A stretch of DNA of 63,338 nucleotides, filler included, from Vannella sp. (Eukaryota): NCBI GenBank assembly GCA_023345925.1. It is 8 parts of 8 records of this genome, joined end to end, with 100 filler letters (N's around TTAATTAATTAA, not from the genome) between each part and the next. Parts side by side here need not be neighbours in the genome. Positions count along the whole stretch, not along the records: positions 45,250 to 52,764 come from JAJQQN010001372.1; 7 more parts are not named here. One strand, written 5' to 3'. Below the pieces are notes generated by a model. It was not told the origin of the DNA and ran no database searches. It was given only the letters and a program-made list of their open reading frames with translations. Shown one piece after another: positions 3,599 to 52,748 of this stretch (within the stretch, counting starts at the first letter, position 1; each line of letters begins with the position of its first letter). Both the position numbers and the translations under genes were made by a program.

Positions 3599-6464
3599 TT
3601 ACAGGCTTTCAGAAATGGGCACAATTTGACCGCGCAAGTCCTTGATTTGCTCTTCGAGACGGGCAATTTCGTCTCCCATAATCTCCATGTCTGATTGGAG
3701 TTGCAGATTCTTCATGAGAGTGTCTTCGAGGACTCGGGACATCTTTGTGTTGATCTCAGCTTGCAGATCTGCTTCGGTATCTTGACCGCCCCCAAAGAAT
3801 CGGCCAATCAAACTACTGTCCTTCTCCTGAAGCTAAGAGTGAGCCAAGGTATCAAGATGATTAAAGGCAAGGCTTACTCTGGCAGCTCGTAACTTGCGTT
3901 GGGCATCCATCGAAGCGGTCGATCGACCTTCCAAAGTGATGTTGGCTAGTTGATGGGAAATCACTTGGTTCTTCTTCTCTACCTCTTGGCGGTACTTTTG
4001 TACCGTTCCCCGCAGTTTCTTAATCTGGGGGCGAGTGAGAAAATGCTATTGGCTCTTCTAGTGTACTGACATGTTCCTCCAATTGGAAGTTTCGTTGTTG
4101 TAGCTCTCCCACTTTCGAAGCAATCGCTGCAATATCTTGAGGTACGCTGACAGGAGTGAGATCTACCTTAGCTTCGACAACTTTACGGGCTGGTGCAGGG
4201 CTCCCTGGTTCATCTTGTTCCGGGGAGGCAACTGGTGGTGGAGGAGCTTCACGAGCCTTTTGTACCCGAGTTTGGAGATCTCTGATGAGGCGTTGAGACT
4301 TCTTAAGCTCAATACTGTTTTGCATTTTTGAATCAATTAGATCCTGCTCTAACTGCTGGATGCGAGCCTGTGCTGCCAGGAGAATGGTTTGAGATTCTTC
4401 TAGTTGATGAGAAGTGAGATTCGCCTTCTCTTCGAAGGTTTTGTGCAGGGAGGACTCTTCTTTAAGCGCGTTCTCTAACGTGGCAACTCTCTGAGTCAGT
4501 TCTGCGAGTTGAGAGGAAGAGGTGTCTTTGGTTTGGCGAAGGAGATCTGTTTTCTTCTGTAAAGCATCTAATTTGGCACTGACTTGGTCGTGACTCGATT
4601 GGAGAGTGGACTGAGCTTCCTGATGCTGAAGGCGAGTAGCCTCTAAGGCGCTGCGATGTTGGTTGACAATCTCTTCTTTGCTGATGGCCATCGAATTGAG
4701 CTCGGACACTTTCTTCTCATAACGTTCGCTCATTTCATTGAGAGTTTTTCGGAGGGTTTCGAACTCCTCGTTGATTTGGGAAGCGCGAGAGCGTTCTTCG
4801 CTGGCGTTCTTTTCTCTGTCTTCAATCTCCATCCGGAGTGCGTTAATGTTCTCTCTCAGCTCCTGAATCTGTTTAGACTTTAGAGCCACCAACTCTTGGA
4901 AGTCTGTAACCTGTTTCGAGTTGCTTTCTAGTTCTTTCTGGATTTCCACTTTGCTTTTCTCTACTTCGCTCACTTTGCTTTGGAGACTCATTACCTCACT
5001 CTTTAGAGCTGCTACCTGCTCTTTGCTTCCTTCTAATTGCTTTTGCAGCTTTTGGGTGGCCTTCTTCACCTCCTCGTTTTGCTTGGCCCCCTTTTCTGAG
5101 CGCACAGCTTCTGCATCGGCGGTAGCAAGAGTCGCTCGGTCACGAAGAGTATCCATTTCCATTTCTTTCTCACCAAGACGGGCGATAATAGCCAATCTAT
5201 CTGTCTGAGCCAAAGCCAATTCCTCTTTCGTATCAGAATGCTGTTTTTGGAGCATTACCATCCGCTCCTCAGTCACCTTTCCTTGGGATTCTGCGGCTTC
5301 CCTTGACACTTGGGACAATGCTGCTTTCTCCAAAGCGGCGGCTAACTGCTCACTAAGACGGCTCCCTTGCTCATCAATATCTTGTTGAAGCTGTGCAATT
5401 TGGGCTGCTAGGTCAGCTTTCTCACTAGCCAGAGTTTCCACTTGCTGCTGAAGGTCTTCCCTCTCTGCGGGAGCCTCCAATGTGAGATCTGTTGCTGATG
5501 AAGCCGACGAGAAGGCTTCGTTCTGTGCCTGGAGAAGGTTGAGGGCTTCCTGGGCCCGTTCTTGGGCTTCTTCTGCATCTTTGCGTTGCCGTATAACAAC
5601 GGCCAGCTCCTCAGCATGCTTCTGTTGAAGTTCGACTACCAACGAAATCTCTTCTTCCGCGTTCAGCTGCCTAGCAGGACTCGCCTTCATCTTTTGAAGA
5701 TCTGAAAGCTTCATCTCCTGAAGCTCTCGCTCTCTCTCCTCCAAGAGAGCGCGTAATCGATCCATCTCGGAATCGGTGGTACTCTCCAGACGTTCTCCGT
5801 CGGATGGAGAGTCTTTTGGACCCAGCTGTTCATTATCCACCTTCTTTTGGTCTTCCTTTGTCACAACCTGCACCTCCAAGCCTGCAGGCTTGGAGCTCTC
5901 TGATTCCGCCCGTAATTGGGACTCAAGGGTAGAAGATCGTGCCTGTTCGGAAGAGAGGGCTTCCTTTGTTGTATGCAGCAGTTCTTCAAGCTCTGGGACG
6001 CGTAGCAGCTGCTCTTGCAAAGAGGATTCGCGCAAAGTGGCCTCCTCGAGGCTCTTTTTAAGCTCTCCGACCAGCGCCTGGAGCTCTAAGGAAGGGGAAG
6101 GAGCAGGTTCCGTTGGTGTGAGTGATGTGATCAGGTTGTTCTTTGCCTTGATGGTCTCTTGAAGGGCTTCAGTCTCTTCGTAGAGGGAACGGATGTTTCC
6201 CTTTAAGGCTTCTGTTTGGGCCGCAAACTCCTCCTTGAGCTGAGAGACTGATCTTCTAAGGTTATCGTTGTCTTGTTGGAGGGCTTCCGTCTGTTTGGAG
6301 CTCCCAGAGAACCAGGAAGAGCTTCCGCTTGGCGCACTCTTTTGTGACTCGGCCAGCGCCTGTCTGAGCTTCTGCATCGCCGCTTCCGCATCGTATGCTT
6401 GCTGTTTGTACTCTAAAAGAGTCCCCTGGAGCTTCTGAAACTCCTCCAGGGAGATGCCAGACAT
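3599..6464 (-). CDS. GRIP1-associated protein 1 (GRASP-1)-like long coiled-coil protein
   Basis: N-term ISLEEFQKLQGTLLE and C-term EINTKMSRVLEDTLMKNLQL..MEIMGDEIARL resemble the GRIPAP1 termini; last exons 3599-4020 are spliced. Confidence 0.7.
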
Positions 6465-6530
6465 GGCGGAGCCCCAAACAATGCCAGCTAGTTATTTAAC
6501 TTCGAACCATTTTTTGGAGTTTCCGCTCGT

Positions 6531-6625
6531 ATTGGTTGGAGTGACATTCACGAGGTACTGGAATCCTCGCTTGTGATTGGCCGAATCGGATTGCTTCTCT
6601 TTTGCTGTTTCGGAAGTCACGTGAC
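6531..6625. promoter_or_regulatory. Bidirectional promoter with two inverted CCAAT boxes and a palindromic E-box GTCACGTGAC
   Basis: ATTGG at 6531 and 6576; CGGAAGTCACGTGAC at 6611-6625, between divergent ATGs at 6464 and 6657. Confidence 0.45.
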
Positions 6626-6656
6626 CGGTTCATTTGCTGTTGCCACTCCAACGACT

Positions 6657-7417
6657 ATGGCCTTTGTCCTTCCTCCTCTTCCCTGGGCTGCTGATGCGCT
6701 TGCCCCCCACATTTCTAAGGAGGTAGGATAGCTAACCGTCGAGTGGCGACAACGTTGGAGGGTAACTGACTGGTTTGTGCTTCTTTCTCAGACGGTGGAG
6801 TTCCACTATGGCAAACACCACGCTGGGTATGTCGCCAAGCTCAACGCTGCGGCAGAGAAGGATGCTTCTCTAGCACAGACCTCTCTGGACGACCTCGTCC
6901 TCAAGGCCAGTGGCGTTACCTTCAACTTGGCCGCTCAAATCTGGAACCACACCTTCTATTGGAACTGCCTGAGCCCCAACGGTGGTGGCGAGCCCAAGGG
7001 CAAGATTGCTGAGTTGATTAACCGCGACTTTGGCTCTTTCGCGGCCTTCAAGACTCAGTTCAGCGACGTTGCTGGTGGCCACTTTGGCTCCGGTTGGGCC
7101 TGGCTGGTCCAAAACGAGTCCGATAAGCTTGAAGTTGTTGGAACTCACGACGCCGCCAATCCTCTTCGCGGTACGCTTCACATCATCCCCCATCGCCCTC
7201 TTCTCTCTTCCCCTCCCCTTCTGACCACAAGCATAGACGGGAAGAAGCCCCTTCTGACTTGTGATGTGTGGGAGCACGCTTACTACATTGACTACCGCAG
7301 CAATCGCCCCGACTACATCAATGGTGCGCTAGCTAGCTCCTCTCCCTTCCCCCACTCATTCTCTCTTTAGCCTTCTGGAACGTCGTCAACTGGGACTTCG
7401 TAGAGAAGCAGTTGTAA
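6657..7417 (+). CDS. sodB: Iron superoxide dismutase
   Basis: MAFVLPPLPW..., HYGKHHAGYV, AAQIWNHTFYW (Fe-type signature), DVWEHAYYIDY; introns 6723-6791, 7171-7236, 7324-7370. Confidence 0.95.
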
Positions 7418-7548
7418 GCATCTGCGCCTGCTCGATTCGGGTGACCCTGCGATCTTTGCTTTCCTCATTCTCGAGTTACAGCAGCAACAGGGCAAAGCTT
7501 TGAAGAGGGCCAGCCAATGAACGAAGACTTCTAACTCAGACGGCTTCT

Positions 7549-10224
7549 TTATCTAGTTTTGGGAGCGCTGCTGACGATGAACTGCAACCCGGACAGCTTC
7601 CGTTGCTGCACCAAGGCCACGAAGGCAGCAAACAGCTCAGTGTACTGTGCGACCGTCTTGAGGCAACGTTGAAAGTCCCTTTGTGAGGAGACTTGAAACA
7701 GCTCAAGCGATGGCTCCAGACGGCTGGTGACGAGCTGCTGGGAGGTGTGCAAGTGGTTGTAAAGGGCGTTTTGGAATGTCCTCAAGTCCAAGGCTACTTT
7801 GCACATCTTCAAGATGAGGCTCATCACCTCTCTCCCTGGCCCCTCCTCGAGGAAAGAGCCTCGCTCGATAGACAAGAGGTAGTCGTCATGCGCCTCTTGG
7901 ATGCGGTCCTGGTGCCTCGTTTAGAGGTTCCACGCGAGAGAGAAAGAGATCACTTACTAGGTTAGAGGCGGAATGGACTCGTCTCTGGAGAGTCTGCCAA
8001 GCCCCGCGGATGACATCATTCATAACGTAGAATTGGAGGTCACTGATGAAGCGTAGCATATGGTTGTGAGCGACATGGAAGGAGAAGAGCTCTTTTGGCT
8101 TGAGAGACTGGCAAGGGAGCGCCGTGAGAAGGAATCAGAAGGAGAGAGGAAGAGAGAAACCCACTTTCAGTGGATGCGCTTGGCGCATCTGCACCAGCGC
8201 GTACTCCGTTCTTTTCAGCTGCCAAAGAAACGCTGAGATTGACGAATAGCGCTCCAAGGCAGCCGGGGTGAAGATCGAGTCCAAAGGCGCCTCCACTACA
8301 TAGGTCAATCGGAGAGTGTCCCAGCCCACTCCCTGCCCTTCCTATCACTCCTTAGTCCTCATGGGATCCTCCACCGCTCAGTGGAGCATACCATCCTTAT
8401 TTGGACGCGCCTGAGGATGTCTTTGCTCTCTTTGTGGGCGGTGCACAGTAATGCACTTTCCAATTGAGATCGGATGCGGTGCAGAAGGATCTGTTCCGAG
8501 GGCTGGGAGAGCTCTAATCTAAGTATTTGAAGTCAGAATCACCTCTGCATGGATGAAATAGAACGCACTCCACTTCATCCAGGAGGGAGCGAGCAAAGTC
8601 TCCGCGCTCGAAGAAAAGAAAGTTCTTCAAAGCTTGAGCGTGTTGGAGGAGATGGAAGTGATTCAGCATCACATCAACGGCGCGCATATTGTGCTTCCTC
8701 TCCCCATGCTCCACCAGACGCTCCAAAAGTCCGGATTCCAAAGACCCATCGACCGGATAGGCATTTGCTCCCCCCTCGTCATCCGCCATGTCCTGCTCAT
8801 CGCACGAGCAGCGCAGAAACTCAATTGACTTTCCGACTCGGAGAATGCGATGGACAAGGTCAGAGGACAAGAAGGAAGGAACCATCTCCTGTCGCAGAGA
8901 AAAGGAATCATTGGAATGGTTCCACAGCGGATTGCTTTGCTCTTTGGCCACAAAGAACTCTTCAAAGTGATCTTCGATCTCTCCGTGAGTGATCCAGTTC
9001 TTCAGGATCTCAAAGAAGGGCTTTTGGGAGGCTTTTAAAAGGTGCATTGCGAATTGGTGGACTCCATTCCCTCTCCTTTAGTTCACTTTCTCCCACTGGG
9101 AGAGCAATCTCACCTTCTGGGTTTCCGTGGTGGGTTAGTTTGTGTAGAATAGTGAGGATTTGACCCCCAGAAGCGTCGCATCGCTCTACTTCTCGGAGGA
9201 AAAGGACGAGGAAGCTGAACCGTCGCGTGAATGGCAAACTCCAAACGAGCAGCCATCGTAAGCTGATCTGGGATGGGTCTATGTCTGCCAATGCGGCGTA
9301 GAAGGAGGTCATTTGAGAACGGACTTGAGCCAAGGCACCTTGCATTACCAACCCACATTCCCCTCCGAACTGTTCCATTCCCCGCTCCAACTGCACGTGG
9401 AGGGTACCCAGGTGGACTATCTTGTCTGCAATCTCCACTTGTGAAGAAGGGATAGCCGCTCGTAACCCCTCTCGTACTCGCATTCCTTCTCGCAGTTCTG
9501 TTTGGACTTGGCAGTGCTGTTGAGCGAGGCTCTCTTCCATCTGCTGAATGGTGAGCCTTTCCTGAAGAAGACTAGCTTCTTCAGGAGTGTTCTCTTGCTC
9601 GGAATCTCCCTCTGGGTCCTCTAAAGGATCAAACGGCGGGAGCGGGGCGAAAGGCGCTGTTGTGAAGGTCTCAAAGGTCTCCCAGCCCATCAGGGAGTTC
9701 TGGATGCCTTGCATGGCTTGAAGACAAGCTGATATCACCTCATTCTCTCCAATGCACGTTGGTGGAACCTCAGAGAGCTCTTCGCTCATTATCTCGTCCA
9801 TTTCGGTGCTTCTAGACGTGCTTCCTGGATGGACAGGCTTCGGAGAGTCACTGGGGAAGAAGGAGCTCTTCCGCTTTCGCTTCAGAGAGCTTGGAAGTGC
9901 CTCTGGTTGCCCTGGGCGATCATTTGCAAGGTCCTGAAGGACAAGAAGGGCGCTCTCCGTACACACAACAGAAGATGCCTTTCTGATGTCATCCAAGAGG
10001 GGATGAGTCCGAGTAAGGCTCCCTTGGGAGGACGTTAGGCTCGAAAGGAGGATAAAATAGATCGTACCGCTTGCTCCTGCTCTACTTTCTGATGAGATGC
10101 TTCCCAAGAGAGCTTTACACTCAGTGTGCAACTGTTTCCGGTGCCGCTGGGATGAAAGCGGACCCGCAAAAGCAGAAATGAGTCGAGCAAGAGCATCCGC
10201 CTGCTGATGCTCGGGTGTGTGCAT
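7549..10224 (-). CDS. Gamma-tubulin complex component (GCP3/Spc98-like), multi-exon
   Basis: WITHGEIEDHFEEFFV, RILRVGKSIEFLR, ALKNFLFFERGDF, GWDTLRLTYVVEAPLDSIF...FLWQLKRTEYAL (GRIP domains). Confidence 0.8.
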
Positions 10225-37841: not shown

Positions 37842-40800
37842 ATGAGCAAGTTCTTTGGAGGCTCTGGGCAGGTCTATGGCACAGTATACCACGCTGGCTA
37901 TGAGGCAACATCACTGGATGAAGCAACGTTGGCAGGGGTGAGCGTTCTGAACGTCTGGCAGAAGTAAAGGCTGACTTTTGACTTCTACGTAGGTTGCTGA
38001 GCCTGCTAGTCTGTCTCCTTATGTTGAAACCTATTCTACCGACCACTTACAGTCTAAAGGAGAACTAGAGGGGCTAGCAGTAGCAGTTCCTCTTCTTTGT
38101 GCTCCTCCTGAAGCGCCCCCTTTGCCCAACTTGGCGCTTTCTGTCCCTTCTGCTCGCTCCTTCAAGGCTATCCGACCTATCATCGCCCCTCGATCTCCCA
38201 TTCAACAGGGAGGGGTCAAGGTAAGAGAAATTGCCCGTTCCGTGATGGAACGGAAGACACTCCTCGATCAAGCCTCTGCTCCCACCTCAGAACTGGCCCC
38301 TATCTTCTTTGCATTCACTCCTTTGCCCTGGCCAATGACTGCAAGTGGGGGTAGCACTGAAAGTCTCTTCTTACCGGCAGAGTCCGTTCCATCACAGTTA
38401 GTTTGCTCTCCATCCAGCTTTCCAGCGGGCTTTTCTCCACCACAAAACCTACCTAGTTGTAGTTTAACATACTCTCAATCGTCAGGAACTCCTGACCGAA
38501 GCGAAGGCTTCGAGAACTCCAAATCAATCACTAATCGGGAACTATCTTTCTCAGCTTCCCCAGCTTCCCCAGCTAACCCATCTTCCTATTTGGATGAGGA
38601 TGCATTTACTTGGGGTCCTGAAAAAGCCAGCCGTGAGCAGGAGCTGTCCCCATCGTTGGGAGAGTTTGGACACACCATCGGCCATTCAATGGACGAGGGA
38701 CATGGCTTCTCCATGCAACAATCAGATTTCTCAGCATGCCAGAAGGATGCCACTTTAAATTGCCTTCCGGGAGCTGACCAAGCCTCTGCGTACGGAGATG
38801 ATGCAGAATGGACTTCTCATTCCTTCCCAACAGACCCTTCTCTTCAAAGGGGTTACTCAACAGATGCAGAAGGTGCATTTCTTTTTCATGTCCAACCTTT
38901 ATCGCTATTATCGGAGGGAGTGCCTGAGAGTGTTCTTCAAGCCAACGCTTTTGAGAATGTTGAATTCTCTTTTGGAGAGTCCCCCGTTTCCAACAAAAAC
39001 TGTCCTTATGCGGACACAAGTAGTGCAGGAGTATGGAGTATTAATGAACCGTTGGAAGACTCAAAAGAGTACAAAAAACTGGAAGAGCGATTGGAAAAGG
39101 TCCATGACTTGGCCACCCTCAAACAGATGCTCCTTGACGCTGCCAAAGACGGCGATGAAATTTCTCTCCACTCATTAAACAGAGAGCTGAAACAAGAACA
39201 GCCTCTTCTCAATCGGCATCACCGTGACTGGAACAGCGAGTTTCAGACACTTCTTGAAACACCCGATTCCACCTCCAAGTTCCGCCGGCTGGCCCACCTC
39301 GCCCATGACTTTGTCTATGCAGCAACCACCTACGCGAAAATTATTATCTCTGAACAATGTCTGCCGAACAATCAACGAACAATCCCGCCAATCTCCGTGG
39401 GCGGAGTGGCGGGCGGGCAAAAGTACCTTTGCCAAAACATTATTTTCAAGTTTGCATTGGATGTGGAGATCGCCCCGGGGCTCTACATGTATGGTGGTGC
39501 CTATGTGGATCATGAATCTGCTATGAAAGCAGCTGCTCATGAACTGAAAGGACTCTGTCAGTATTATAGTACTTTGACTCCCCAACTTGCGTACCCTCTC
39601 CTTGCCTACATTGACTACAAAGGCTTCCGAGTCATTGCAATATCTGTATTACCCATCGGCAGAGACTCTCTTTGCTATGGATCTTCTGATTCTGGTGTCC
39701 ACGTTGTCGCGAAAGATTCACAATTGAACTCCTTAATGGAGCGGGCTGCATCAGTACTCAATCTCCAGCCTCACGTTGCTGGAACTGTGGCCGGGCAATG
39801 TGCCCGTCTGAGCAGTGCGGGCGATCTTGAAGCCCATTACGGGACTGACGGCCGATTCTACATCTTAGACTTTGCGAGAGCCTTTCCTCCGGAGTCTCCT
39901 CCCATCCTCAGCTCCGCTCGGCAGCCCAGAGCGGTCTACTACCGACTTCTAAGGCCGGAATTAGTTCGTAGCAACCAAACACCTCTTAGTCCCGATGCTT
40001 TCACCTCTTGGAGTCTTTTAGACCCCCAATTTAGGGAACACAACGGAGCAGTATTTCGGTGTACTTTAAGGCTCCTCAATACGGTTATTCCTGGGTTTGC
40101 AGGCTGCTTAGACGTGGATTGGCAGTCAATGGAAGACAAATTGATTCCCGAAGTCCACCGAGCGGGTATTAACGTGCGGCATCTGGGCCAAATACGATCT
40201 CACTGCGTTGTAGCACCAGCAAGATCTCTACTGTTGGTAGAAATGGTAGTGAGAGTGGTCAAAAATCGATTAAGGGATGAAATGCGGGCAGCCATGCGCC
40301 AGGCTCAAGGACTCTCTCAAGAAGCCTTCAAAGCCAGCGCTATTTCTACCTTCAATCTGGTTTTGGGCAAGGCTAGTCGACCAGCTATCCGCCAATTCTG
40401 GTCAACCATTCACAATCGAGTCACTTCCAAGTTCTTCCACGGAATCACCGGTATTTCCGGTCTCCATCAAAGTGAGACTGCTGAGTCTCTCCAACATCAA
40501 ATGGAAAGTGCGACATGCTTGCGGCGCCTCATGAAGAGACTCTTGGCTCTGTTAGGAGTTCGGATCACCGAGCAAGCAGCCCAGCAACTGGATGACGACC
40601 CCTTTGCGTTTGAATTCGTCGACGCTGATGTTGCTGAGGTCAGCGCTCAACCCCATTTCATGGATATTATAGACTACGCCGAAGCAATGGCTCTTGAGAG
40701 GATGGCACAGGATAAAGCGGCAGAGAGGGAGAAATTGCGTTTGCTTGAACTCAGTGCAAAGAAGTTCGAACGCGCTCTTCACTCGACCCCAGCCAATTAC

Positions 40801-43344
40801 ATGGCAGTCTACAACTGGGGAGAAGTCCTGTTCCAACAAGCCCGACATACAGAACATCTCCCTGCCCGAATATCACTTTTACACGAAGCTGCTGACAAAT
40901 TGAGTTCTGCATTGGCTATCAGTCCAGTCAAATTTGCTCTCCTTCATTTAGGGGAGATCTATCTGACCCTGGCCATGAACGACAAGCCAACTAGTGCCTT
41001 GAATAACTTCATCCTCGCAGCACAGATGTTCTTGCGCGCTGTGCAAGCTGATTCTGCTTTCATTGAACATCTCACAGGCTACTTGGATATGCTATTGAAG
41101 CCCCCTACAAGAGCTTATCAGCTTCGAGGGCTTCTAGAGATGTGCAAACGAATAGCAGTAGCTCTGCCAAATAATGTGGCGATTTTCCGTGCCTGGAGTG
41201 AAGCTATCCTAGATCTAGCACTGAACTTTTCCTCTTTCTCCCAAATACAGCTCACGGATGAAGTCAATAGCTTCGCCCACGCTGCTATTCGTGGTGTACA
41301 AGAGGATGAGGCATGCCTTGCTTTGATTGTGGACGTTATAGATCGAGTGAGCGACTTGGCGTTCCACCATAAGCAACTTTATCTCTTTGTAGCCAGCCTT
41401 TACCCAGCTATTCAACTTGGAACACAAGGGAATACTTCCCATTTGTTTTTGCAGTGGGGTTGGGCCCTTTGGGAGCATGCAAAAACCCTCGATTATCTTC
41501 AATATTCCGGTGCATTGGCCGCAGCAGCCGAAAAGTTCGAAATGGCCGTACAATTTGACGCTGATTGCCTCGATGAGCACCTAAGGAAGGCTGCGGAAGG
41601 GCAAGGAACCTTATTTTCGCAGTGGCTGGACTTACTGGAAGGTGCACCAAACGTTAGAACTCGTTTGTTCTCTTTCCTTCGCACAGATTCGCTCAGACTC
41701 CACTGGTCACTCAGTCTGACCAGCGCTAAAGAGCTGGCTGAGCACGCAGCAGGGGCTCTGACTAGTGTATCTTTTGTTCAAGTGCACCAAGCCAGTGCCA
41801 TTCTTGTGCTCTTGTCTCAGCACTGCCCAAATATCACTTCCATCTCCCTGCAACTTTGTGCTGTGGAGCTTTCCGCTGTCGAGAAGGTTTGCCAGCAACT
41901 CCCAAATCTTGAGTCATTCACTCTAATGGAGTTTCGTGCTACAGCTGACCTTCTTTTACCCCTTTCTACAATGCCCCACATTCACACTATTCGGTTCCAT
42001 GACGTTCGGGTGAAAGAACGAGCCCAATACCTCGCTAGACTCTCTGGGACACTCCAAAACTTGGATTTAAGTTACAGCACCATTACTGACGCTGAGTTCT
42101 CTTCTCTCAAGTGTCTCACTGGACTACGTGAGCTCACTCTTCGCTATTGCAAACACATCCAAAACAGCATTCCTGACTTGGTGCGCCAACTGAAGCATTT
42201 AAAGCACTTGGATGTGTCTGGAGCTTATCGTGATACAGACAGTATTACAGCCGCGGTACTCAAGTCAGGATGCCGTACTCTACGCTACTTGAATGTCTCT
42301 CATTGCAAGAAACTTACAGATAAGGGTCTGACCGATATCGCCGCCATCTTTGGGTGCAATCCGCTTTCCTCCCTTTCTTTCGCTGACTGTTGCCGTATCA
42401 CCGAAGCGGGATTGGCTACCTTGTCTATTGCAGAGGGACTCTCTCAACTGCGTCACTTGGACATGAGCCTCAACAACCACATCCAAGAGAGCAGCATTGC
42501 TGTCCTTTTCCAGCGCCTTGATGCTTCTCGCTTAGAATCCCTGAAGCTTGTGCGCTGTTCTGTCATGAATAGTACGCTCTCTAACCTCACCAGCAGTCAG
42601 AACGGCCCCTTCTCTCTTCGAGAGCTCTCCCTAAAGTCCACAAAAGTGACTGACCTCACTTGGGTGGCCGAGCATTGTCCTAGACTGGAAAAGATCGAAC
42701 TGGGAGAGTGTCCTATCCAAGGGCCCTCTCTCCTAGCCTTGGCCAGACATTGTCCAAACCTGATAGACATTGACTTGACCCGTTGCAACGGGATTACGGA
42801 AGTAGAACTGATAGATTACTTGAAGCTATCTCCCAACTTGGTGCACCTACGACTGAATTACTGTTTACCAGTGGGACTGGACTCTCTCTTGACCATTGCT
42901 GAAGGTTGCCTGGCCCTGGAGACTCTCGAGTTGGAAGACAATCTCCGTATCAATGACGCAACGGTCATGCATTTGCAGAATCTCCCTTCTTTGCGCCGAC
43001 TGAATCTCAGCCGGTGCAACAGGGTCAAGAGCAATTCAATCGTTCGATTGGCTCAGTCGAGCCCTCTTTTGCACCACTTGGATGTGAGTAACACCACTTT
43101 GGTGGACGGAAAGGGCGCTATACAAGTCGCCAAGTATGCGAAACAGCTCCATACTTTCTGTGCTCGCCAGACTCACAATGTCACCCAAGAGACGGTGGAT
43201 TGGATGACGCGTTACCGCCCCAACATCACTTTCGTGGTGGATCGGAGCTCCAGCATGGTCTCAGAACTTCGAGAGCACGTTCAATTCCAATCCAGAGCGC
43301 ATGTTCCTCTCGAGAGTCTTCCATTTAGAAGGAGTAACTGTTGA
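37842..43344 (+). CDS. CLU-domain + TPR + LRR protein
   Basis: CLU motifs (DFVYAATTYAKIIISE, GGVAGGQKY, IDYKGFRVIAISVLPI, GTDGRFYILDFAR, LLRPELV, HRAGINVRHLG), TPR-like helices, a long run of cysteine-containing LRRs; single intron 37938-37992. Confidence 0.85.
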
Positions 43345-47348: not shown

Positions 47349-48059
47349 CTAACGGAAAGGACTTGGTAGCAGTTGGAATGGAAGGTGTTTTGGCTGAGGA
47401 AAGGTCCTGTCGTAATGGACCTTTCCTTGTAAGCTGGCCACGAACTCCTGGAAATCACGCTCCTCCGCATCCTCTTCTTTTGTTGGTGCTGGAGAGTGGA
47501 TTGGATCTTCTGGAAGGTTCATGGCGGCTGATGAAAGGTTGCGCAGAGCAGAGGCTCCTCGGAACGTTTCAAGATAGTCAAAGGAAGGTTCTTTTTCTTT
47601 TGTTGATGATTGTTTGAAGATACCCTTTGAGATGCTTGGTTTTTGCACGGATAGGACTGTGCTCATGCGGGAGGGGGGCAATTTCTCTCGCAGGTTCTTA
47701 ACTCTGGCATTGAACGCGTTTGTCTCATTCTTTGACACGAGTGACTTGAAAGGAGCGTTAGGTGAGGCAAGTAGAAGCTTTCTTTTCTGCCTCAGATTGG
47801 CAATTTCGCGAGAGAGAGACGGATCTCTTGGCAGAAGCTCCTCGTAGGCTTCAATCATTGTGTCCAAAGATTTGACTTTCCGATGAGGCCATCGTTCCAC
47901 GCCATTCCTTCGACAGATCTTCTTTAAGACCGTAGCACATATACCCAGAGATACCGCAGCTTCATCGATAGGAAGGTTGTACAATGAAGAGACTTCCTGC
48001 ATCGAGATCACTTCCTCCTGGGCTGAATGGTTGGGACCCCCGATCAGGGTGGCGGGCAT
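47349..48059 (-). CDS. RWP-RK domain transcription factor
   Basis: YNLPIDEAAVSLGICATVLKKICRRNGVERWPHRKVKSL. Confidence 0.92.
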   Translation of the reverse strand: MPATLIGGPNHSAQEEVISMQEVSSLYNLPIDEAAVSLGICATVLKKICRRNGVERWPHRKVKSLDTMIEAYEELLPRDPSLSREIANLRQKRKLLLASPNAPFKSLVSKNETNAFNARVKNLREKLPPSRMSTVLSVQKPSISKGIFKQSSTKEKEPSFDYLETFRGASALRNLSSAAMNLPEDPIHSPAPTKEEDAEERDFQEFVASLQGKVHYDRTFPQPKHLPFQLLPSPFR

Positions 48060-48531
48060 GTTGAGGAAATGAGTGAATGAAGTTGAACGAAGGGTTGATT
48101 TCCAAGCAATTCCGGGAATCCATCAAGAATCAGAAAAAAACAGGAATCCATCAGCATTGGGCCTTTGTCGTCTTGTGTCTCATCTCCACCATCAGGCAGG
48201 CCTTGAATGCCCGCGCATCATGGAAGAGTGGCTCGACTGATTGGATATGGAAGCTCTCACCACACGCGGAACCCGTGTATACTGGACTCATAACCCGTTA
48301 AACCAATAGGGTTGGTGGCCACGTGATCTACAGATCTTTACATGGTGTGGTGAGGTTCCCATATCCAACACAACTGTCACATGCAATGTCTGCTGGACCA
48401 ACTTCCTCCATGGGAGTCTCCTTGGTCTCATACTGATTTATTCTGATGAGTGAACAAGGTAAAACCAACAGGGCATTGAGTTGAGCCGTGCTTGAAAGGC
48501 TCAGGCTGAGGAGATTTAAAGAAATGAATCA

Positions 48532-50133
48532 TTATTGGATGTAGAAGGCAACGGGCTCCTTGAGTTTTTTCCTCTCATTCCACATGACACGCTGCATATC
48601 TGGATCCTTCGCAAGACGAGCGAAAGCAGACATTGATCGTACTGAAGGAGCGGAAATGTATCCGGAATGGAGGGTTCCTCGCTTTCCTCCCGAAACCGAA
48701 GAAGAAGAAGAAGAACAGTCTTCTTGTTGGCGCATATGGCTAGTTGGGATCTCGAAATTGAAAAGGAACTCGCTCAATTCCACCCACGCTTCGTTAACTT
48801 GCTGTTTGGCTGCTGGAGAGTAGGTGACGATCCGATCTGGAACAAAAAGGTTTCCTGTTCTTTCGTAGTTGACCACCAACGCTTGCATTAGCTCCCACAA
48901 GATCATCCTATGAGGACTTTCCAAAAGGCTTCGCTCCAAAGCTGCAACAATAGGCTGCATTTGAATCTCGACAATGTCTTGAACAGTGTTCCCACTTAGA
49001 AGGAGCTTCACTGCGTGCTCTAAGGTAGCTACTGAGCCTCCCACTTGAGAGATAAGCAGAGTAGCATCTTTCTCACTGAGTGCGAGGTCGTTCATGTCAA
49101 GAAGCGCCAAAAGGCGCCTGTGGATGGCATCTTGAGATCTCTCTCCAAAAGAGACTTTTCTCACGTCGGGATCAGTCCTAGCGTCCATGTAAGGCTCCAA
49201 CCTAGCTAACAGAGATGGATCATTGGATTGGATGAGAACTTGGCACCAATCCCTCTCCAGTGACATCTCCCGAAGCCACTGAAGGAAGCGCCGCATCTCT
49301 GCTTGCTCTTGTACCTTCTCGATAGGATCAGAGATCGCATCAATGTAGTCTAATAGAGACTCAAAGTTGCTGATCCATACAAACTGCCTCGCACCTGGTC
49401 CTCTTTGCTCGATAAGCGTCGTCATCTCTTCCAAGACATCTACGAACTCTCCTCCTGCTGGGTTCGCTCGATTGCTAGTTACTTGAGCGAGACTTTCTGA
49501 TAGAAGTCTTTGTAGGCCTCCTTTGTGCACTTTCTCATCAGCGCCAGGTGCGCTGGCAGCAAAAAGGGGCGATCGATAGGAATTCGGTTGGATCGAGAAC
49601 TTGATTGCGCTGCTCTCGGCCAAGTAGCTGTTGACAAGGTTATGGCTGTTGAACTCTTTGGGGCCCATGGCTATCGCAAACGTGCCAGCATGCGAGAAGA
49701 CGGCCTCAAGCTCCATCCCTTCATTTAAGAGGGACGGAAATCTGTTGTTGATGACCAGAGGGACAACTGGGGAGGCAATTAACATCTCATCTTCTCCTTT
49801 TGACTCTTCTAGATGCTCAGACTGCTCTTTGGGTGCCACAACAAGGAGGGAGACAGGGTTGGGTTTGCCCAGAGCGGTGTACACCAAAGCCGCAAGTCCT
49901 CCACATATCAAACCAATCCCAATAGGAAACAGCAGCTTCTGCGGAGGGGCTGTGCTGGATCGAGGTGGTAGAGGCGGAGGAATAGGAGAGCTGGAAGAAG
50001 GCAATGTGGGGGGAGGAGAGTAACCCATCCTCCCTTCCACATTTGGCACAGTCCGACGAGCCCTTGTTGTCTCAACGAACGCCATGTTTCTTCCCCTGGC
50101 TGCCACATGGGAGAAGGTCCTCACCCGAAGCAT
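48532..50133 (-). CDS. Predicted mitochondrial membrane protein with a degenerate P-loop ATPase-like domain
   Basis: Presequence-like MLRVRTFSHVAAR, one TM helix, degenerate Walker A (AMGPKEFNS) and Walker B (VWISNFE); intronless. Confidence 0.45.
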   Translation of the reverse strand: MLRVRTFSHVAARGRNMAFVETTRARRTVPNVEGRMGYSPPPTLPSSSSPIPPPLPPRSSTAPPQKLLFPIGIGLICGGLAALVYTALGKPNPVSLLVVAPKEQSEHLEESKGEDEMLIASPVVPLVINNRFPSLLNEGMELEAVFSHAGTFAIAMGPKEFNSHNLVNSYLAESSAIKFSIQPNSYRSPLFAASAPGADEKVHKGGLQRLLSESLAQVTSNRANPAGGEFVDVLEEMTTLIEQRGPGARQFVWISNFESLLDYIDAISDPIEKVQEQAEMRRFLQWLREMSLERDWCQVLIQSNDPSLLARLEPYMDARTDPDVRKVSFGERSQDAIHRRLLALLDMNDLALSEKDATLLISQVGGSVATLEHAVKLLLSGNTVQDIVEIQMQPIVAALERSLLESPHRMILWELMQALVVNYERTGNLFVPDRIVTYSPAAKQQVNEAWVELSEFLFNFEIPTSHMRQQEDCSSSSSSVSGGKRGTLHSGYISAPSVRSMSAFARLAKDPDMQRVMWNERKKLKEPVAFYIQ

Positions 50134-50293
50134 GACCCAAACAAATGAATTTTCCCGCCATTTTCCAAATGTGCTGACCTTCTTTGGAAGTGAATGGGAG
50201 GATTCATCTGGCACTTGAAAAGACGAAAATCATGTCTAAAGCGCTCCTTCTTGAAACCAGCTCGAAAGGACATTCTTTGGTGACCCTTCATTG

Positions 50294-52748
50294 ATGGCCC
50301 AAGTCGAGTGGGACGGCGGTACCGGCTGGAAGTTGCCAGTGCTGCAGGCTATCTTGGATGAGGACCCCGAGAAGCTCAACCAGGTGAGCTCCTTTCCACA
50401 GTCCAGGAGGAAATCAAACCAAAGCGAAACGGCTCTTTTCTAGTATGTGAGTGAACGGAAGCACTTTTGGAGAGCTTCTCACTGTAAACACTTTGTTACT
50501 AGCATGTTAGTGTCTTTTCTACTTGTCAGACGGGGCTCAGTTGCAGGGAGGATGACATCTGAACGTTCGGACCTTCCTTTAGCAAGTAAGTGAAAGGAAA
50601 CCTTCTTTGAGCTCACAGCCATTACAGGAAGTAAGCGAACCCGTTCTCCTTGATAAGACAATGCATGGTCTCATCAAAAGGGCCTCTCGTTCAGTTTGTA
50701 AGGGAATCTCCAATCTTTTGGTGCGATGCTGACTCTTTTCTCGCAGAAGGTAAGCAGGAGGACTTATGATGCCTGATACAGTCTAGCATACTAACAAGGA
50801 CAACATTGGCCGTTAGTTTGGAGTGCGTTGCTGGGGAAGAAGACACTCCTGCAGGAGAACTGACAGTTATTTAGAGTGTAAGTTGCTCGCTACATTCAGG
50901 AAGAGGTGGAAGGCGGACATTCTTCTCCAAACCCTATATTTGGGAGAGCCCTCACCAGACTGCTTTAGAGTGTGAGTGGCCGATCGCGGAAAAGGATGAA
51001 GCATCACTTACTGAAGACGCAATGAAGTCTGTGAGTAGTTTCGCTGTTTGAAGAGGATTTAATCGTTGCGGTCAAAGAGAGTAAGAGGTCCAAGCTGTGG
51101 GATCATCAGAGGCCCTCATCTAATCTGAATTCAGCATGTAGGTTTTGCCCATCCGGAAACGTGCACGATACCAACCAAGTTCATTTACAGTGGGTAAGTC
51201 ATTCTCTAAAGTGAAGAAGATGCTCAACTCTCGAAGACATTCCTTGGATTGGCAGCTGCCACAGGGAACGCTGAATTCGTTAGATATTTGCTTTCTCGAC
51301 GAACCATCAACATTCATGAGGGAGTCCGTTCTTTTTTGGAGAAGGAATACACTCTGACTTGGGTCATTCTAATTTTTAGTGTGTGAGTTATGTTGCAACA
51401 ACTTTGGGTGAATGCAATACTTACCGGCCGCTTTTAGCAAGTAAGAAACAAATCCTGAGAGATTCCGTGGAGCACAGGCCTTACCAGGGGACCATTTAGG
51501 CTGTAAGTGATTATTAGAGTCATCTGGAAAGGAGAGGAATTAACTGGATCGCAAAGGTTGTAAGAAGGGATCCTCTCGAGATGAATCAGGCCTCAACGTT
51601 TGGGATTGATTAGCTTGTAAGTATTTGATTTCAGCAAGACCCCTCTGACCATGCCCTTCAGAGGGTGGGTAAATCATTTGGTGAACTTTGGGATCTTACT
51701 CACGAATGGCGTGGTAATCAGGATGTGAGTTCTTAAATTTTAAAAAGACTTAGCAGGGGCTAACAGCCACAATCACTGTAGGTGGTAAGTGAATGGAGGG
51801 GAGGCGCGAGTGCCAAGATATCAGAGCAAAGTAATCTCACTTCATTGGACTTGCAGGGAGTAAGTGGTTCTAAAGATGCAATGTGAAAATGTGCCTAATC
51901 AGCATCTCCCAGTCCGTAAGTTTCGAGGAAGGTGGATTTGAAGCTCTGCTGATTTATTCCTTCTGTAGGAGGTAAGGGGCACCTTATAACTTTGAATCAC
52001 TCCGCCAACGTCCTCAATTAGGCTGTACGTAAACCAAATACCAACCGAATGATCTGAATGGAATGGGAAATAGCTGGCATTTGACTTGAGCGCGAACCTC
52101 CAGATCAGGACGATGCTCAAAAATGCGGGTGGTAGGCCTCGTTTCTACCCACCCCGTGACTATGATTATTGCTTCAAGATCAAGATCGTTGGGGACAGCG
52201 GAACTGGCAAATCCTGTTTGATTCGTCGATTTGTGGATGATTACTTCAATTGGGAATATTTCCAAATTGATCAGGGCTTTCTCAGTAAGACTATCGTAGT
52301 TGGAGGTAAGTCCATTAAGCTTCAGATTTGGGATCACAAAGAAGAGCGCTTTCGCCTCGGCCCAAGCCCCTACAGCGGGGCACATGCAGTCATCCTTTTG
52401 TACGATGTTACAGATCCTGCTTCCTTTGCGAATCTCAAGCAGTGGCTCTTTGATGTTGAGAGAAACGCCAGTGAGAATGTGACCAAGCTGATCGTTGGAA
52501 ACAAGTGCGACCTGACCATTAAAAAGGTCATCCACTTGGACACTGCAAAGCAATTCGCTGCAGAGCGTGAGATTCCTTTCTTTGAAATCTCTGCCAGGAC
52601 TTCAGTCTATGTCGAGGAAGCATTCACTTTTCTGGTCACCAAGATTCTTGAGAGACTGACTGTACCAAACCAAATCAATCAGATTGATAGCCCTTTCAGG
52701 CTTCAAGTTGAGGGCAAGAAGCGCAAGAGCAAGTGCAAGTTACAGTAG
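50294..52748 (+). CDS. Ankyrin-repeat + Rab1-like GTPase-domain protein encoded by 28 exons, 25 of them microexons (309 aa if all are included)
   Basis: Exon 50294-50383 MAQVEWDGGTGWKLPVLQAILDEDPEKLNQ; microexons YHQEFK(FG)SSSRHW; exon 51237-51323 TFLGLAAATGNAEFVRYLLSRRTINIHEG (ankyrin); microexons CQAVLRDVGSEA; exon 52074-52748 LAFDLSANLQIRTML + Rab domain + CKLQ; all 27 introns GT-AG and phase 0. Confidence 0.88.
50384..51236 (+). other. Microexon array 1 (13 microexons, 14 introns)
   Basis: AG|exon|GT at 50444 TAT, 50503 CAT, 50583 CAA, 50628 GAA, 50695 TTT, 50747 AAG, 50817 TTTGGA, 50875 AGT, 50969 AGT, 51028 TCT, 51078 AGA, 51135 CAT, 51191 TGG. Confidence 0.88.
51324..52073 (+). other. 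Microexon array 2 (12 single-codon exons, 13 introns)
   Basis: AG|exon|GT at 51380 TGT, 51438 CAA, 51500 GCT, 51557 GTT, 51614 CTT, 51662 AGG, 51722 GAT, 51782 GTG, 51857 GGA, 51913 TCC, 51969 GAG, 52022 GCT. Confidence 0.9.

What the first reader, a model, noticed from the sequence alone, without database searches (positions are those of the whole stretch)
51324..52073. Array 2 offers 12 codons where the ankyrin hairpin needs about 5
The constant exon TFLGLAAATGNAEFVRYLLSRRTINIHEG aligns to ankyrin consensus positions 1-28 (one insertion). The next constant exon begins at the T-P-L-equivalent (LAFDLS). Only the D-x-x-G-x hairpin tip (about 5 aa) is missing, yet 12 one-codon exons (C,Q,A,V,L,R,D,V,G,S,E,A; 10 different residues) lie there. 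The surplus and chemical variety look like a palette to choose from, which is the best internal argument for alternative selection.
Basis: partly seen in the sequence, partly recalled or inferred. Interest (0 to 1): 0.85.

Follow-up and report, generated by a model that had tools for sequence, protein, structure and literature searches.

The report
Ankyrin loop spelled by one-codon exons
A gene of a likely amoeba carries twelve three-base units in a row, each between ordinary short introns, that are predicted to spell a binding loop of an ankyrin-Rab protein one amino acid at a time; the layout is real and rare, but the loop is more likely made long with occasional skipping than freely mixed, and no RNA was available to decide.

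Summary
Observation confirmed. Twelve AG-NNN-GT units (51380-52024) lie between 13 introns of 45-72 nt; 2000 shuffles gave chains of at most 4. A first array of 13 microexons lies upstream. All 27 introns sit in these two predicted ankyrin loops; the other 852 coding bases have none. The last exon encodes a fast-evolving Rab1-derived domain. Host is likely an amoebozoan.

The 'about 5 needed' arithmetic holds (surplus 7), and such insertions are rare in ankyrins, which supports skipping. The variety argument fails: 21% of ordinary 12-residue windows have 10 or more residue types, against 3% in duplicated metagenome arrays. Array 1 has no surplus and equally strong splice sites. These introns show no trace of duplication. 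No RNA run or full-length homologue was obtained, so selection is untested.

Best reading (0.5): mostly full inclusion, with frame-safe skipping as a minority. Palette: about 0.33.

Precedent: truffle nank genes (codon-sized exons, alternatively spliced) and fly sowah. This scan noted similar arrays earlier on other DNA. New variant of a known kind.

The parts
50294..50383 (+). Predicted first coding exon, 30 aa; by eye an N-terminal ankyrin cap (helix-turn-helix)
   Evidence: ATG and GTGAGC donor read; no Pfam or PDB match
50444..51193 (+). Array 1: 13 predicted microexons (12 of 3 nt, one of 6 nt at 50817-50822), 14 residues, between 14 introns of 42-91 nt
   Evidence: the 6-nt exon and the 91-nt intron are the least certain calls
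51237..51323 (+). Constant middle exon, 29 aa, one ankyrin repeat core
   Evidence: Pfam Ank E=0.017, below cut-off; PDB ankyrins; Atlas ankyrin clusters
51324..52073 (+). Array 2: 13 GT-AG introns (45-72 nt) around 12 predicted one-codon exons, all phase 0
51380..51382 (+). one-codon exon C
51438..51440 (+). one-codon exon Q
51500..51502 (+). one-codon exon A
51557..51559 (+). one-codon exon V (AAG acceptor)
51614..51616 (+). one-codon exon L
51662..51664 (+). one-codon exon R
51722..51724 (+). one-codon exon D
51782..51784 (+). one-codon exon V
51857..51859 (+). one-codon exon G
51913..51915 (+). one-codon exon S
51969..51971 (+). one-codon exon E
52022..52024 (+). one-codon exon A
52074..52748 (+). 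Last exon, 224 aa: predicted ankyrin C-cap (about 20 aa), linker, Rab1-derived G domain lacking the G3 motif, C-terminal CxxQ
   Evidence: Pfam Ras E=2e-41; alignments A1, A2; tree; model pLDDT 82.7, first 30 residues 64-69

Best explanation
The twelve three-base units between ordinary GT-AG introns are predicted exons that likely are mostly all kept, giving an ankyrin repeat of about 41 residues with a long hairpin loop, while frame-safe skipping likely adds a minority of shorter loop variants. Each intron would be recognised as a normal 45-72 nt intron and removed in turn (inferred). The product would be a 309-aa protein: a three-unit ankyrin module whose two loops are both spelled codon by codon, fused to a prenylated, probably catalytically impaired Rab1-like domain (inferred from motifs). 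The arrays likely arose long ago by serial duplication of an intron-plus-codon unit, which lengthens the loop one residue at a time and explains phase 0 throughout; the introns have since diverged to background. Shown: layout, splice signals, frame, confinement of introns to the two loops, loss of G3. Inferred: splicing, inclusion level, origin, function.
For: Array 1 must supply the end of a helix and a hairpin and gives a period of 31 when complete, so it has no surplus; deletions are very rare in ankyrin repeats (1.4%, PMC7314423 passages), which implies processive inclusion is possible in this gene (depends on my by-eye reading of exon 1). Donors are equally strong in both arrays (5.5 vs 5.6 of 6). 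Array introns have the host's ordinary size (COPB introns of 46, about 57, 60 and 112 nt). Residue variety is that of ordinary protein. Unit flanks are 0.25 identical over 66 pairs and the best local alignment between introns is no better than shuffled (58% of 200 nulls reach it), whereas 69 of 69 retained metagenome arrays are at 0.30 or more, median 0.57. Ankyrin repeats up to 48 residues exist, insertions mainly in hairpins (PMC4687027 passages). Fly sowah has annotated 3-, 3-, 6- and 12-nt exons (PMC8042270 Table S4).
Against: A 7-residue surplus is rare among ankyrins (PMC7314423). Full inclusion misplaces the Gly of G-x-T; 159 of 757 five-residue subsets place it correctly. The closest precedent, truffle nank, is reported as alternatively spliced (second-hand). 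68.9% of 411 fly microexons were alternatively spliced (PMC8042270 passage). Single-skip introns would be 102-132 nt and the host has a 112-nt intron, so skipping is feasible. 24 of 25 exons have stayed single codons although the introns are saturated, and all 27 introns lie in the two predicted binding loops; constitutive splicing gives no reason for that. No transcript or intron-free homologue was obtained.
Confidence: 0.5

Rival explanations
1. Palette: most transcripts keep only an ordered subset of about 3-8 of the 12 codons, giving up to 3964 distinct loop peptides on an ankyrin binding surface, as reported for truffle nank genes.
For: Surplus of 7 over consensus; every skip keeps the frame and none of the codons is a stop (weak: chance 0.23 for 24 codons); arrays confined to the hairpin loops, where ankyrin contacts are enriched (PMC4687027) and fungal NLR ankyrins show positive selection (PMC4986451 passages); the fused Rab clade is fast-evolving in its switch regions; arrays of 30-63 units in metagenomes cannot plausibly be ordinary loops; 3964 peptides counted.
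Against: Variety no higher than ordinary protein; D-x-x-G-x cannot be spelled; no weak sites and no shared intronic motif above chance; no duplication signature; array 1 has no surplus; in the fungal-type loci I read, the arrays follow the last ankyrin repeat or the GTPase domain as a tail rather than sitting in a folded loop.
Confidence: 0.33
2. Diversity is made between genes, not between transcripts: the arrays let paralogues gain, lose or change single loop residues, and each gene is spliced one way.
For: A clade of 7 diverged relatives exists (100/100), 38-56% identical over the last exon; none of the database proteins extends into the ankyrin part, as expected if an intron lies just upstream.
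Against: Units are too diverged for unequal crossing-over today; upstream DNA of the relatives could not be fetched, so their arrays are unseen; whether they share a genome is unknown.
Confidence: 0.12
3. The units are not spliced exons: chance, a decayed repeat or a pseudogene remnant.
For: No RNA evidence; no full-length homologue among the hits examined.
Against: Chain of 12 against at most 4 in 2000 shuffles; intact near-consensus sites at all 24 one-codon units while intron interiors are randomised; both flanking exons open and in phase.
Confidence: 0.05

Closest known systems
Tuber melanosporum nank (NACHT-ankyrin) genes, Iotti et al. 2012 (paper not held; seen only as cited in PMC4986451, PMC13449251, PMC3689799 passages)
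   Same: Tens of codon-sized exons in an ankyrin-containing gene; proposed role in varying a recognition protein.
   Different: No NACHT domain here but a Rab1-derived domain; host likely amoebozoan, not a fungus; two arrays inside predicted ankyrin loops; introns unrelated in sequence; alternative splicing not shown here. Where the nank arrays sit in their protein I could not read.
Drosophila sowah microexons (PMC8042270 Table S4, rows read)
   Same: Adjacent 3-nt exons in an ankyrin-family gene; earlier scan notes place them in the hairpins and call them mostly constitutive (not checked by me).
   Different: Two one-codon exons, not 24; long animal introns; no homology tested or implied.
Schistosoma mansoni micro-exon genes (review PMC4015677, passages)
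   Same: Runs of small exons with exon skipping proposed to vary a protein.
   Different: There microexons form up to 75% of the coding sequence of secreted proteins; here 78 of 930 nt, in a predicted cytosolic prenylated protein, and nearly all are exactly one codon.
Rab1/Ypt1 GTPases
   Same: Ras-family fold (Pfam E=2e-41; model), G1, G4 and G5-like motifs, about 45-53% identity.
   Different: Switch I and G3 (DTAGQ) are replaced, the end is CxxQ rather than CC, and an ankyrin module is fused in front.

Membership tests
Tuber nank (NACHT-ANK with codon-sized exons) | NACHT domain | tested here: not met
   Last exon is Ras family; NACHT only E=0.15 on the P-loop; exon 1 has no family
Tuber nank (NACHT-ANK with codon-sized exons) | Ankyrin repeats | tested here: met
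   One repeat by Pfam (below cut-off), PDB and Atlas; the two flanking units only by eye (blank)
Tuber nank (NACHT-ANK with codon-sized exons) | Tens of codon-sized exons | tested here: met
   24 units of 3 nt and one of 6 nt, at DNA level
Tuber nank (NACHT-ANK with codon-sized exons) | Alternative splicing of these exons in transcripts | not testable with these tools
   No RNA holder listed
Tuber nank (NACHT-ANK with codon-sized exons) | Expanded paralogue family in one genome | tested here: inconclusive
   Clade of 7 from unnamed sources; no genome held
Schistosoma micro-exon genes | Microexons form most of the coding sequence | tested here: not met
   78 of 930 coding nt
Schistosoma micro-exon genes | Signal peptide, secreted | not tested
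   No predictor run; by eye exon 1 has no hydrophobic leader and the protein ends in a prenylation-like motif
Rab1 GTPase | G1, G4, G5 motifs and Ras fold | tested here: met
Rab1 GTPase | G3 DTAGQ and conserved switch I | tested here: not met
   Absent in 7 of 7 clade members, present in the 13 ordinary Rabs aligned
Rab1 GTPase | C-terminal CC or CxC | tested here: not met
   CxxQ in 7 of 7 clade members

The most novel reading that the evidence does not exclude
An amoeba builds a natural DARPin library by splicing: it picks ordered subsets of single codons for the binding loops of an ankyrin module (up to 3964 peptides from array 2 alone) fused to a membrane-anchored, fast-evolving Rab1 look-alike, making a somatically varied intracellular sensor or decoy, for instance against bacterial effectors that attack Rab1 (that target link is recalled, not tested).
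Probability: 0.22. Interest if true: 0.85.

Novelty: new variant of a known kind. Interest (0 to 1): 0.58.

Why it matters
Either outcome is informative. If all twelve are kept, the spliceosome joins a dozen three-base exons in a row accurately, a clean test of intron definition at the lower limit of exon size. If subsets are chosen, a single-celled eukaryote outside fungi diversifies a folded binding surface residue by residue. One amplicon across 51323-52074 decides it, with array 1 as a built-in control. The metagenome scan also shows that such arrays are far more common than the literature I could search suggests, and gene callers miss them (all relatives are annotated from the last exon only).

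Tried and rejected
RNA: no RNA holder listed. No genome held. Family-specific search with residues 1-45 of the last exon: no candidate. Whole last exon: 111 hits among 312 candidates, 4 family members, none full length. Profile search of 1.84 billion representatives: the best 150 were mostly ordinary or multi-domain Rabs, adding 2 family members, none full length; a full-length member ranked lower would be missed. Viral contigs: 70 pattern matches, the longest chains being tandem repeats; no family member (L203 read, an ordinary Rab1; L202 not read). Phage and plasmid searches blank. The 29-aa ankyrin exon was too short for the locus search. A home-made ankyrin profile had only 2 repeats and was uninformative; the intron search for the UBC9-like gene printed nothing, so its intron sizes are by eye. 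Spliced products with 3-12 residues could not be folded; only the last exon was. No shared enhancer motif: best 5-mer in 7 of 27 introns, reached by 67 of 500 shuffles. My note that the consensus needs about 3 residues is withdrawn: the I-N-I-H = I-D-V-N register gives 5. A bacterial promoter scan was irrelevant. Paper search returned only unrelated papers. Rejected: tandem repeat, open reading frame on either strand, chemical variety as evidence.

Full report
Observation. The window is seven sequence segments joined by N runs; the gene lies in segment 45250-52764. Between 51324 and 52073 there are 12 three-base units at the stated places, each preceded by AG and followed by a donor matching GTRAGT at 5 or 6 of 6 positions, separated by 13 stretches of 45-72 nt. 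Shuffles give chains of at most 4 in 2000 trials, and no chain longer than 3 exists elsewhere in the window for exon sizes 1-9 nt on either strand. 20 of the 27 introns of both arrays have a loose branch-point-like motif (no control). The flanking donor and acceptor are both phase 0.

The gene. The model is exon 1 (50294-50383), array 1 (13 microexons, 14 residues), a 29-aa exon, array 2 (12 residues) and a 224-aa last exon: 930 coding nt and 27 introns, all in the two arrays. The middle exon is an ankyrin core. Exon 1 and the first 25 residues of the last exon look like N- and C-terminal caps by eye but are not recognised by Pfam or PDB searches; the model of the last exon gives a short helix at 5-7 and a helix at 9-17 at pLDDT 66-69. 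The rest is Ras family. With six database relatives it forms one long-branched clade among Rab1-like proteins (7 of 31 rows, 100/100). All 7 lack G3 and switch I, keep G4 and G5-like motifs and end in CxxQ, which suggests a prenylated, impaired GTPase (inference). None of the relatives extends into the ankyrin part.

Host. COPB, on another segment of the window, is 52-60% identical to named proteins. Of 10 top hits looked up, 4 carry species names, all Amoebozoa in EukProt (Cavostelium, Clastostelium, Clydonella, Soliformovum; their placement in Amoebozoa is my own knowledge). So the host is likely an amoebozoan, assuming the segments share one source. Its ordinary introns are 46-60 nt with one of 112 nt in COPB, so array introns are of normal size and a single-skip intron of 102-132 nt is within reach.

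Testing the surplus argument. In the register I-N-I-H = I-D-V-N, 5 residues are needed before the next T-equivalent; all 12 give a period of 41 instead of 34. Insertions occur in 9% of ankyrin repeats and those over 5 residues are rare (PMC7314423, passages), so the surplus is unusual. Yet structures show repeats of 24-48 residues with insertions mainly at the hairpins (PMC4687027, passages). None of the 757 five-residue subsets spells D-x-x-G-x, though 159 put Gly in the right place, which full inclusion does not. Array 1, fully included, gives a period of 31, no surplus, and has donors as strong as array 2. This internal control weakens the inference that one-codon exons here mean choice, but it rests on my reading of exon 1.

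Testing the variety argument. 847 of 4120 12-residue windows from eight ORFs of this window hold 10 or more residue types, mean 8.5. Variety is therefore ordinary.

Comparison with other arrays. They hold 96 distinct chains of 8 or more units; I dropped 27 with stops or fewer than 5 residue types as likely satellites, leaving 69, ten of them with 30-63 units. 13 of 129 loci match parts of one P-loop GTPase family and 4 of 129 match NACHT and ankyrin queries; fungal origin is my recalled impression. These arrays are tandem duplicates (flank identity median 0.57, minimum 0.30) with low variety (17 of 517 windows at 10 or more types), and in the loci read they form C-terminal tails. The window's array has flank identity 0.25, background level. 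The pattern favours duplicated arrays with strong sites, so the contrast is partly ascertainment. Still, this array is old, stable, and inside a folded domain.

Mechanism. I commit, at 0.5, to mostly full inclusion by intron definition with minority frame-safe skipping; the palette gets 0.33, gene-level diversification 0.12, artefact 0.05. For the palette speak the surplus, the Gly register, the confinement of all introns to predicted binding loops, the persistence of single-codon size in 24 of 25 exons, the fast-evolving partner domain, and the truffle precedent.

What is known. [quoted passage not shown] This gene works with the same unit but is not a nank: no NACHT. Fly sowah has 3-, 3-, 6-, 12- and 27-nt exons (PMC8042270 Table S4), and 68.9% of 411 fly microexons were alternatively spliced (passage). 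In plants most coding microexons are included in the major isoform (PMC8831610, passages). Schistosome micro-exon genes differ in scale and secretion (PMC4015677, passages). Searches (listings and abstract starts only) showed no paper on such arrays in amoebae; subscription journals and bioRxiv supplements are not covered. Earlier notes of this scan describe similar arrays on other DNA, including ankyrin hairpins of an uncultured eukaryote; these are leads, not support.

Verdict. Interest 0.58.

Noticed in passing
L122 (- strand, units at 3946-8180 of the reverse complement), also L074, L082-L085, L133, L136: A family of P-loop GTPase genes, probably fungal, carries tandem-duplicated one-codon arrays of up to 63 units after the GTPase domain; I saw no paper on this combination but did not search for it specifically.
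   Followed up: partly
L129 1739-7569; L080 2828-4542: Membrane-anchored ankyrin genes with about 80 and 26 one-codon units after the last repeat.
   Followed up: partly
L099, L104, L112: NACHT-ankyrin genes with one-codon arrays after the last ankyrin repeat, nank-like, with Pro/Arg-rich codons.
   Followed up: partly
window 52074-52748 and P0121-P0124, P0240, P0317, P0347: Fast-evolving Rab1-derived clade with variable switch regions, lost G3 and CxxQ ends; candidate pseudo-GTPases or decoys.
   Followed up: partly
window 50878-50968: The 91-nt intron of array 1 holds an AG-GAAGAG-GT unit only 22 nt from its donor; a hidden or decayed microexon is possible.
   Followed up: no
window 50233-50295: A 20-codon upstream ORF ends in a TGA overlapping the predicted start ATG.
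   Followed up: no
window 48532-50229 (-): Head-to-head neighbour, 565-aa ORF with no confident Pfam family, starting within about 200 nt of the ankyrin-Rab gene.
   Followed up: no
window 47349-48122 (-): RWP-RK transcription factor domain (E=4.6e-22).
   Followed up: no
window 37993-43344 (+): 1783-aa intron-free ORF joining CLU, TPR-like and LRR domains.
   Followed up: no
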